Part shown: positions 52,901 through 58,007 of the stretch, one piece after another | Layout of the letters: each line of letters starts with the position of its first letter | How positions within the stretch are numbered: the first letter of the stretch is position 1 | DNA from: Pocillopora damicornis | Taxonomy: Eukaryota | DNA: 64,000 nt | Reading direction: 5' to 3' | Assembly: GCF_003704095.1 (NCBI RefSeq) | Contig: NW_020844895.1 | Coordinates: forward strand, 124,001-188,000 | Position numbers and translations under genes: made by a program | Notes under the pieces: model-generated | Databases searched by the model: none | Seen by the model: only the letters and a program-made list of their open reading frames with translations | Told to the model about the DNA's origin: nothing

Positions 52901-55900
52901 GTCGCTTGCAAATGGAAGACGAACTTATCGCAAATGTAAGAGCAAGGATTTTACTCTGCTACCTTAATCGTCTCTTAATTTTAAGTACTTATACTATTTT
53001 TTTTTCTCTTTAAGAAGGTCTTTCTATCTGCTTTTATCTAGGATGAGCGTTATATCCGACAATATCGCGAGGAAACGGAAAAAATGAGGAATCAAATCAA
53101 AGAACTGAAGACAAGGTAGCGGTAATATCGTAAAAGCGGTTATTGTTCATCGTGGTGGCAGTAGTTTCTTTGTTTGGCTAATACTTGTTTATACTTACGA
53201 TAGGATGTAAAGGTTTAAAGCACTAACTTATTTGACCTAGCTTAATCATGCAATCTATTTTACCAGTGCAAAGATATTCCAAGGTGCAAAATGCAGCGTC
53301 TGTTCCCGACCTTTGGACCTGCCGGCTGTACATTTCTTGTGCCAGCACTCATTTCACCAAAAGTAAGTGCAGCATGTGCGGCGCATTTTTTTTTCACGTG
53401 GTTTTGCTTCGCTCGAAGTCATGACCTATTTTTTCATTATCTTTATTTTGTAGCTGTTTTGAAGGATACGCAGAATCAGACAACGAATGCCCGATATGTG
53501 CTCCGGAAAACAGGTGAGGGTAATTTTCAGTTGTTGTACTAAAAGGGTCCTAAAAAAACATTTAAATTTATGGTCTTTTTGTAAGAGAACCTGGGAGCTT
53601 CCTTAGCAGTTGACATGTTTTTGAAAATTTACCCTCTGGCCCTTTTTCTTGCGCTTAAAGGTTCAAGTAGATTTAAATTTTGAAATAAAGGTAGGGTCTG
53701 TTTTCTCGTTTTGGGAAGTCTTCAAGCACAGATTGTCATCGTGGATTAAAGAATCCATTTTTTTTCAATGATTTGCCAAAAGATGTAAAGCGGGTAGAAG
53801 AAAAGAAGATAGAAGGATGAATTGCTAATCAGATCCTCGAAGTCGAAGGGTTAACACTGAGATTTCGTTCTGTTTCAGAAAAGTACTTGACATAATAAGA
53901 CAACAGGAGCAGGCGAAGGATCTTCATGAACAATTTCATTGCCAGGTGAGGACGAAATCTCCCGGAGATTTACGACAGCTTTCCGATGAAAATCCGAAGA
54001 CGGATCGCCCGTCTCAAAACAATTCGGACTAAGGCATGATTTTTGTTCATTTCAGCTGGAGAGAGCGGCGGATGGGTTTTCTGTTGTGGCTGAGTATTAC
54101 GGACGCGGTGTTTTCAATAAGGTTTGTTTTTTCTTTGATTAGACGCACTGCATAGGAGTATATCCTTTAATTTTTTTTTTTTTAATTAGTTTCCACTACG
54201 GATCTCGTTTTAACGAGACTTAACCAAGGGGCAGACGTGCCAATCTTTGTAAAATGCCCAGAAAGATAGCATATCATTGTATTTCTTTCAACACATACTC
54301 CTGGGAATATACTTGTGGGTGAATTTGTGTAACTTTTTTCTTGAATGCTTATGAGATGCATAATATACTAATGACCTGTTTGGGCGCTATAAGAGATTCA
54401 TGTTGGAAGGTAATGGACTGTCCAAAACAAGTGGTACAGTTGTAACCTTTGCCAAGAATGTCTCTGCGGCCAAAAGTTCATGGAGGTGCATGCTTACGTG
54501 CGTTGGTTTTAAATATATATGCCTTCTGACCGGTTTTTCTGACTTTACAATCACCACCACCCGGTGGAAACCATTACTTTCTGCAGCATCAGTTCGGGAA
54601 TTTTCCACGGGAAAAATTCAGCGGTTGAGACGTGTTTGATTAAATGTTCACAACAGTTCTACGCAATAGTTCTTCATATTTGCTTTTAGTGATAAACTTA
54701 TTAGCTTGTATCGAAAGTATTATACAAATTCACTCCACACAAGCTTTTCTAAAAAATTGACACCTACGTCAAATGGTCGAGTTTGAAGTTTTCTCAGGCA
54801 CGCAAGCGCTGGGTGCGTAAAGGGAATTAAGGCAAGCGCGCCAAAGGAATTTAGGCATTATTGCTTATAAATGTCCTTTTCAGAATTGGCGCCGTAGAGA
54901 TTTCCAGAGTTGGCATTTCGAGCGTTAGCCCTTCGTAACTGCGAAAGAAACTCGCTGACGAAGGCCTAACACTCGAAACGCAAGTTTGCATGATCAACTC
55001 AGTTAATGAAAACAATTCATCCTTTTAACAATGTCAAAACAAAAAATTGTAATTTCCTGCCAACCATTTGAAAACGTTGGAAGATGTTGCCAGGGATGGC
55101 CGAGATAGATGCACGCAATCCCGTACGTCATAACTGACGAATTCAAGCTGGCCCCAACTAGTCGTGAAAAGTTGTTTTTTTTTCCTACCATTGTTTTGGA
55201 TTTATCTCCTTTTGAACGCTCATCGTTCGATGCCTTAATTTCATTGTGTCTGATGGAGGAAAAATACTGAGTACTCTCTTGACCTCATTTGAAGCTACAA
55301 CTAACCTTAACACTTAAACTCCCAAGAGTGACCAAGACAGAATTTCTCCTTACAATATCAATACAATATCAAGAAGACAAGTGAGAAGAATTAAGAAAAA
55401 TATCATGTGGGCAATTGTTAGCCGATTTAATACCGAATTCTCCAAACTAACATCATGAGAACTGTATGGCAGACAGTAAGGAGAATTACGTTTGCGATCT
55501 GAAAGGGTTAATAGAGGGAGAGTTGTGGGAAAAGTCTGTGAATGAAAGAAAGTCGTGAACACTTATTGTCGAGTCATGAAGGAAAAGTGTAATTTGAACA
55601 TGCTTAAGACAAACAATCAAGTGATTTTATGGCTTGCAGAGATGAATTCGATAGTGTTTTTCAAATTGCTGAAAGAAAAACCAGGATTAAGAGTATTGTT
55701 GTCTTTGTAGTTTATTTTAGTAGTTATTAACCCTAAAATGTTAGGGCAATTTTTTGAATTACCATTTATAGTTTTGTAACATAAGGAAAACTTAACAGTA
55801 TTCGTGTCTCGCTTCTCAAAGGTGTTTTCATTGACAGAAAAATAGGAAAATGTTGTGAAAATCTTAAATACTTTCGAAATTTTAAGTAGGAACCTTCTAC

Positions 55901-58007: not shown

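What the first reader, a model, noticed from the sequence alone, without database searches (positions are those of the whole stretch)
54122..58007. A complete GPCR gene nested on the same strand inside the last intron of VPS11
Seen: VPS11 coding stops at ...GRGVFNK|GT (54121). The best in-phase continuation is an AG-flanked exon at 57909-58007, VTVVTDPNLSRG...LLNTSHS*, which matches the human ending KLTLLTDP as I recall it. Between them lies the intronless 7TM ORF 56107->57271 on the same strand. Known: nested genes are more often antisense to the host. Inference: the GPCR poly(A) site could truncate VPS11 transcripts, or the GPCR could be reached by splicing from the host transcript. Caveat: a 100-N gap lies between the GPCR and the last exon.
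Basis: partly seen in the sequence, partly recalled or inferred. Interest (0 to 1): 0.7.

Follow-up and report, generated by a model that had tools for sequence, protein, structure and literature searches.

The report
Receptor gene inside coral VPS11 intron
In Pocillopora corals an orphan receptor gene lies on the same strand inside the last intron of the housekeeping gene VPS11, whose mRNA splices over it; this is a known kind of gene nesting, and here it likely arose when a member of a neighbouring receptor family was copied into that intron.

Summary
The nesting is real but ordinary. The VPS11 junction 54121→57909 is present in 4 of 4 RNA runs laid across it (four studies), at the depth of the upstream junctions. 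Homologous VPS11 proteins end in this exon. The rhodopsin-class ORF is not complete in the window: it runs open into the gap, and a 99%-identical protein is 437 aa. Neither proposed mechanism is supported: no contig splices into the receptor, and its RNA cover matches the rest of the intron. In 4 of 8 other animal loci holding both exons (three coral lineages), this intron is 149–1,226 nt with no receptor, so the nesting is likely derived, from an old receptor cluster beside VPS11. Constraint may be relaxed: allelic pN/pS is 0.63, and two runs likely carry a repeat insertion. Intronless same-strand nesting is the usual same-strand type in Drosophila, and GPR52/RABGAP1L is a direct precedent. 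The scan noted intron-nested GPCRs before in other genomes (e1-9937406, e1-8603820).

The parts
54056..54121 (+). VPS11 penultimate exon (LERAADG...GRGVFNK); donor GT at 54122
   Evidence: RNA junctions
54122..57908 (+). VPS11 last intron, 3,787 nt as assembled (longer in reality); the next longest VPS11 intron is 1,085 nt
   Evidence: junction in 4 of 4 RNA runs; intron sizes
55295..55500 (.). interspersed repeat copy upstream of the receptor; not bridged by any independent contig I saw
   Evidence: very high depth
56107..57271 (+). nested class A (rhodopsin-like) orphan GPCR, coding sequence intronless; 388 codons in the window, full protein 437 aa with the stop in the gap
   Evidence: Pfam 7tm_1 E 4.9e-30; P0002; loose ends; motifs
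56538..56543 (+). strong cryptic 5' splice site inside the receptor coding sequence (score 9.7; real VPS11 donors 2.1-9.8); use not seen
   Evidence: no loose end there in X6 or X11
56557..56558 (.). site of a likely repeat-insertion allele in extracellular loop 2
   Evidence: loose end in X6 and X11 matches an interspersed repeat of at least 1 kb; the P. meandrina model P0004 skips this region
57272..57371 (.). 100-N scaffold gap that hides the receptor's last 49 codons, its stop and any poly(A) site
57372..57443 (.). end of a high-copy interspersed repeat at the right edge of the gap
   Evidence: 39 of 40 scored matches are this piece; 787 candidates
57909..58759 (+). VPS11 last exon: coding to the stop at 58007, then 3' UTR to about 58759 (ATTAAA at 58736; contigs of 4 runs stop at 58759, a weak hint because a repeat lies close by)
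25456..26511 (-). paralogous receptor G1, downstream of a coiled-coil gene that ends at 23653, so not nested in it
31185..32456 (+). paralogous receptor G2
59717..60865 (-). paralogous receptor G4, convergent with the VPS11 3' end; almost no RNA cover

Best explanation
An orphan rhodopsin-class receptor gene lies on the same strand inside the last intron of VPS11, VPS11 mRNA splices over it from 54121 to 57909, and the receptor is likely a separately and weakly transcribed duplicate from an old local receptor cluster that entered this intron in the lineage leading to Pocillopora. Shown: the nesting, the full-length VPS11 splice, the receptor fold class, the neighbouring paralogues, and the short receptor-free intron in three other coral lineages. 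Inferred: gain rather than repeated loss; a promoter of its own inside the intron, active in few cells or conditions; and silencing of its poly(A) signal while it is read as VPS11 intron, as reported for intronic signals in Drosophila (PMC3890989, abstract). The low RNA cover over the receptor is best read as unspliced VPS11 pre-mRNA.
For: Junction in 4 of 4 runs at upstream-junction depth. 25 of 25 VPS11 proteins checked end in this exon type, 18 of them with VTVVTDPN. Listed contigs over the receptor have depth 2.8-10.1, other last-intron contigs 4.95-10.7 and the spliced junction 49-693; the bins 59488-60922 over G4 are 0-1.4. Of 8 loci from the metagenome scan, 4 hold both exons (introns 149, 149, 161, 1,226 nt) and none of the 8 has a receptor match. 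L027 and L028 also keep the downstream neighbour gene, so they are the orthologous locus. The cluster is old: accessions of this family lie close to the coiled-coil gene in Desmophyllum (OS493_029525/029518 vs 029527) and to VPS11 in Oculina (ACROYT_G031822 vs G031830/31). Signs of function: intact class A motifs, dN/dS 0.22-0.29 against paralogues, and 13 of 15 listed cluster members full length at 437 aa.
Against: No transcript of the receptor on its own was seen. The runs were chosen for holding 52600-57271, and contig depth is a poor measure of expression (tool warnings). Allelic differences are 17 nonsynonymous to 9 synonymous, pN/pS 0.63, not distinguishable from neutral (p 0.18). Two runs likely carry an insertion allele, and P0149 has lost the ECL2 cysteine. 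The sister protein P0005 (59% identical, support 100/99) comes from an unnamed coral and shares a contig length (207,714) with the G2 orthologue P0233. The gene is therefore older than Pocillopora, and whether P0005 is nested is unknown. Four of the 8 loci end before the last exon. A Porites lobata gene model ends differently after GRGVFNK (P0158), which I could not examine.
Confidence: 0.62

Rival explanations
1. The nesting is real, but the receptor is a silent or decaying passenger in Pocillopora, transcribed only as part of the VPS11 intron and losing constraint.
For: RNA cover no higher than the rest of the intron. pN/pS 0.63, p 0.18. Likely insertion allele in X6 and X11. The P. meandrina model P0004 skips the same region, and P0149 lacks the ECL2 cysteine. 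Its branch is longer than its sister's (0.41 vs 0.24), and a strong cryptic donor sits in the coding sequence.
Against: The frame is open for 437 codons in most alleles listed (the cluster is biased to intact frames). Core motifs are intact. Polymorphism ratios run high even in working genes, and 26 sites give little power. Paralogue G4 is also unseen in bulk RNA, so low bulk signal may be normal for this family.
Confidence: 0.26
2. The receptor depends on its host: it is made from VPS11 primary transcripts, by alternative splicing, intronic polyadenylation or processing of the intron, or its transcription truncates VPS11.
For: Same strand and last intron. No receptor promoter was shown. Retained-intron RNA covers the ORF and would end VPS11 with VCFFFD*. 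Precedents: nested transcription drives host intronic polyadenylation at H13/Mcts2 (PMC13309782, abstract); processing of Gpr52 from host pre-mRNA was raised as a possibility (PMC4372774, passages).
Against: No joint or loose end into the receptor's 5' side in the contigs seen (30 weaker joints were not shown). No drop in VPS11 junction depth at the last intron. Only weak acceptors upstream of the ATG. 25 of 25 VPS11 proteins checked carry the normal last exon.
Confidence: 0.08
3. The nesting is an assembly artefact and the receptor segment belongs elsewhere.
For: The segment is bounded by a repeat (55295-55500) and by a gap beside a repeat; I saw no independent contig across either.
Against: Either join alone places the receptor between donor and acceptor, so both would have to be wrong. 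The upstream flank is single-copy. RNA cover is even across the intron on both sides of the gap and nearly absent beyond the gene.
Confidence: 0.04

Closest known systems
GPR52 in RABGAP1L (vertebrates; PMC4372774, passages read); also Gpr21 in a Rabgap1 intron (PMC4813635, passages read)
   Same: Single-exon class A orphan GPCR inside an intron of a membrane-trafficking gene, in the same orientation (stated for Gpr52).
   Different: GPR52 nesting is conserved from zebrafish to human and has a reported functional link to its host. Here the nesting is lineage-restricted, in the last intron, with no link shown; host and receptor are not orthologues of that pair.
Same-strand nested genes of Drosophila (Assis 2016, PMC5174743, passages read) and mammals (PMC11694760, passages read)
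   Same: Short duplicate gene in the host's longest intron; intronless inner coding sequence, the over-represented same-strand type.
   Different: Coral; terminal intron, whereas mammalian nested genes favour 5' introns; expression divergence not measured here.
Coral-amplified rhodopsin-like GPCR families (PMC10236652, passages read); database label 'octopamine receptor beta-like'
   Same: Member of a clustered coral family (374 hits at E ≤ 1e-30; four copies in this window).
   Different: The label is automatic: position 3.32 is Val, not the Asp of amine receptors. The passages searched in that paper contain no 'nested'.
H13/Mcts2 transcriptional interference (PMC13309782, abstract read)
   Same: Host/nested pair in which the inner gene could end host transcripts early.
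   Different: No early termination of VPS11 is visible in the bulk contigs.

Membership tests
Nested intronic gene, same strand | Inner ORF lies wholly between a used donor and acceptor of the host | tested here: met
   junction 54121-57909 in 4 of 4 runs; stop placed in the gap by P0002
Nested intronic gene, same strand | Host and inner gene on one strand | tested here: met
Nested intronic gene, same strand | Inner gene is its own transcription unit (own start and poly(A) site) | tested here: inconclusive
   only low-depth unspliced contigs, equal to other intron parts; contigs cannot show starts, ends or strand
Class A (rhodopsin-like) GPCR | 7tm_1 domain over full model length above cut-off | tested here: met
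   105.3 bits vs 30.5, model 1-260/260; best PDB hits are TAAR, 5-HT4 and beta-1 receptors
Class A (rhodopsin-like) GPCR | Conserved motifs (TM1 GN, TM2 Asp, C3.25, E/DRY, ECL2 Cys, TM6 FxxCxxP, NPxxY) | tested here: met
   read; C3.25, ERY and NPLIY located (motif names from established knowledge)
Aminergic / octopamine receptors | Asp at position 3.32 | tested here: not met
   Val at 3.32; the criterion is recalled textbook knowledge
Opsins | Lys at position 7.43 | tested here: not met
   Ala at 7.43; the criterion is recalled
Interference-type host/nested pair (H13/Mcts2-like) | Host transcripts end inside the intron when the inner gene is active | tested here: inconclusive
   no sign in bulk contigs; needs 3'-end data from expressing cells
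Retrocopy | Lost introns, poly(A) tail and target-site duplication relative to a parent | not testable with these tools
   all paralogues have intronless coding sequences, dS to them is 1.4 or more, and the 3' end is in the gap

The most novel reading that the evidence does not exclude
The receptor has no promoter of its own and is produced from VPS11 primary transcripts, for example from retained or processed last-intron RNA, in particular cells or under stress. That would tie a coral-specific signalling receptor to an endolysosomal tethering gene, and the same switch would remove the last 32 residues of VPS11.
Probability: 0.07. Interest if true: 0.6.

Novelty: new member of a known kind. 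Interest (0 to 1): 0.22.

Why it matters
Modestly. It is a clean, RNA-verified example of a lineage-specific gene nesting in a coral, with the un-nested state visible in relatives and likely broken alleles segregating, so it could serve as a small case study of how nested duplicates persist or decay. In practice, knock-outs, primers or read counts over either gene will be confounded by the other, as happened for Gpr21 and Rabgap1 (PMC4813635), and annotation pipelines can drop or mis-model such a gene. It does not reveal a new mechanism.

Tried and rejected
1. An alternative VPS11 last exon upstream of the receptor: no candidate acceptor gives a VPS11-like ending, and RNA uses 57909. 2. A splice into a pyrimidine-rich GAG at 55964-55966: it is not among the 12 best acceptors, and contigs of X1, X5, X6 and X8 cross it unspliced. 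3. The loose end at 56558 as an antisense splice to a nearby exon: no match in the window; it matches a dispersed repeat, and the four copies I printed lack an AG at that point. 4. Nesting of paralogue G1 in the coiled-coil gene: that gene ends at 23653. 5. Shared upstream sequence with paralogues as a sign of a recent DNA duplication: only 14-23 nt matches. 6. Flanking repeats as the vehicle of insertion: the same repeat families occur throughout the window's introns, so they are uninformative. 7. Absence of RNA cover over G4 is not evidence that G4 is silent. 8. The first tree run timed out and was replaced. 9. No structure or complex prediction was run, because the fold class is settled and no binding claim is made. 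10. Literature: (top 10 of 726 listed) showed no paper on a coral VPS11-nested receptor; subscription journals and supplements were not searched.

Full report
1. Observation. The window shows the VPS11 exon ending GRGVFNK at 54121 followed by GT, and an exon at 57909 that reads VTVVTDPNLSRG...LLNTSHS*. Scored with matrices trained on 33 other VPS11 introns, 57909 is the best acceptor in the intron (13.8; next 10.9). One search listed 24 runs; I laid 7 of them. In one search, 4 of 4 RNA runs from four studies (two recorded as RNA, two guessed) carry the GT..AG joint from 54121 to 57909. Its depth equals or nearly equals that of the upstream junctions (177.7, 49, 693, 105.7). A RefSeq Pocillopora damicornis protein (XP_027041585.1) has the identical ending, and Acropora, Montipora, Oculina, Porites evermanni and mollusc proteins have the homologous one. 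Of 25 VPS11 proteins checked, all 25 end in this exon type. One model outside that set, Porites lobata P0158, ends differently and is probably a prediction error (not examined).

2. The receptor. The ORF from 56107 matches 7tm_1 over the whole model (E 4.9e-30). It has no stop before the 100-N gap. P0002 is 99% identical, 437 aa, and stands for 406 sequences; 13 of the 15 members listed are 437 aa. Loose ends at 57271 in 4 of 4 runs continue the same frame. The gene is thus 49 codons longer than the window shows, and the gap is longer than its placeholder. Position 3.32 is Val and 7.43 is Ala, so it is neither an amine receptor, despite the 'octopamine receptor-like' labels on relatives, nor an opsin. 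The ligand is unknown.

3. Does the gap matter? Donor and receptor lie on one N-free stretch, so the acceptor must lie beyond the receptor. Conversely, if the gap join is right the receptor precedes the acceptor. Both the repeat at 55295-55500 and the gap would have to be mis-joined to undo the nesting. I saw no independent contig across either. The flank 55510-56106 is single-copy, and the gap's right edge is a high-copy repeat.

4. Expression and the proposed mechanisms. Listed contigs over the receptor have depth 2.8-10.1, other parts of the same intron 4.95-10.7, and the spliced junction 49-693. Cover continues unspliced after the gap into the last exon (X6 record 21) and is near zero at 59488-60922. 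This is the pattern expected of VPS11 pre-mRNA. The tool warns that contig depth cannot rank genes and that these runs were picked for holding the region, so it is a hint only. Contigs of four runs cross the upstream region and the ATG without a fork. One search shows no joint and no 5' loose end in X6 or X11; 30 weaker joints were not displayed. No sign of VPS11 truncation or of splicing into the receptor was found, but rare forms are dropped from contigs.

5. Origin. A degenerate scan of metagenome contigs for the penultimate exon gave 8 loci. Four hold both exons: L025 and L030 (98.6% alike, intron 149 nt), L027 (161 nt) and L028 (1,226 nt). The other four end 93-2,901 nt after the donor. 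None of the 8 matches the receptor family. Among named proteins their last exons score best against Oculina. L027 and L028 keep the downstream neighbour seen at 62.3 kb, without G4 in between. The family is old at this locus: four paralogues lie in the window with dS of 1.0 or more. Accession neighbours place family members beside the coiled-coil gene in Desmophyllum and near VPS11 in Oculina (inferred from numbering, not from DNA). The nested copy's sister is P0005 (100/99 in a 22-row tree; also in the 127-row FastTree), which shares a contig length with the G2 orthologue. A single gain by local duplication is the simplest reading; its date and route are open, and loss in the other lineages is not excluded.

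6. Is it still working? Against paralogues dN/dS is 0.22-0.29 where dS could be computed (2 of 5 pairs), which reflects long-term constraint. Among the 26 coding differences (36 rows, 10 upstream of the ATG left out), 17 are nonsynonymous: pN/pS 0.63, p 0.18 against neutrality. X6 and X11 show a fork at 56558 into a dispersed repeat, the P. meandrina model skips that region, and one allele lacks the ECL2 cysteine. Relaxed constraint is therefore a serious rival.

7. Known comparisons. In D. melanogaster 71.3% of nestings are opposite-strand, and intronless inner genes make up 71.5% of same-strand cases (PMC5174743, passages). In mammals the orientations are broadly similar (PMC11694760, passages). 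A ctenophore has 2,357 nested genes, many parallel to the host (PMC8527503, passages). Gpr52 is a single-exon GPCR in Rabgap1l in the same orientation (PMC4372774, passages), and Gpr21 lies in a Rabgap1 intron (PMC4813635, passages). Intronic poly(A) signals are mostly ignored in Drosophila (PMC3890989, abstract), though nested transcription can truncate a host (PMC13309782, abstract). Rhodopsin-like GPCRs are the most amplified domain in coral genomes (PMC10236652, passages). Searches showed no paper on this locus; supplements were not read. Earlier scan notes describe intron-nested GPCRs in an annelid and a shark; I did not check them.

8. Verdict. This is a real, RNA-verified same-strand nested gene (about 0.96), a new member of a known kind. 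Interest 0.22.

Noticed in passing
window 56557-56558: Runs X6 and X11 (two studies) have a contig fork into sequence that matches a dispersed repeat of at least 1 kb, likely an insertion allele that breaks the receptor in loop ECL2; X11 also shows the intact form. The P. meandrina model P0004 omits the same region.
   Followed up: partly
window 56538: A strong cryptic donor inside the receptor; joined to the VPS11 last exon it would give a four-helix truncated receptor in another frame. Use was not seen.
   Followed up: partly
window 55123: Contigs of X1 and X8 both stop at 55123 beside a donor-like GTACGT, about 250 nt downstream of a TATAAA at 54866. This may be a simple allele fork or a non-coding first exon of the receptor; unresolved.
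   Followed up: no
window 26583 (- strand), 72 nt upstream of the G1 ATG; 222 nt upstream of the G2 ATG: Paralogues G1 and G2 have strong acceptors upstream of their ATG (9.1, 9.4), suggesting 5' UTR introns; the nested copy has none as strong.
   Followed up: no
window 35662-37161 (-): A YTH-domain gene (named from memory of the motif) ends its large exon at a donor near 35690. Its last exon was not located, so whether G2 lies antisense in that intron is open.
   Followed up: partly
window 59717-60865 versus L027, L028: Paralogue G4 is also missing between VPS11 and the 62.3-kb gene in two other corals, so two receptor copies were likely added around the VPS11 3' end. A small receptor fragment lies at 61814-61939.
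   Followed up: partly
window 22795-23362: A 22-nt tandem array interrupts the last coding part of the coiled-coil gene.
   Followed up: no
L024: An unnamed animal locus in which the two exons before the last VPS11 intron are fused (intron absent).
   Followed up: no
L030:1821-2090: Partial duplicate of a VPS11 exon just upstream of the real one.
   Followed up: no
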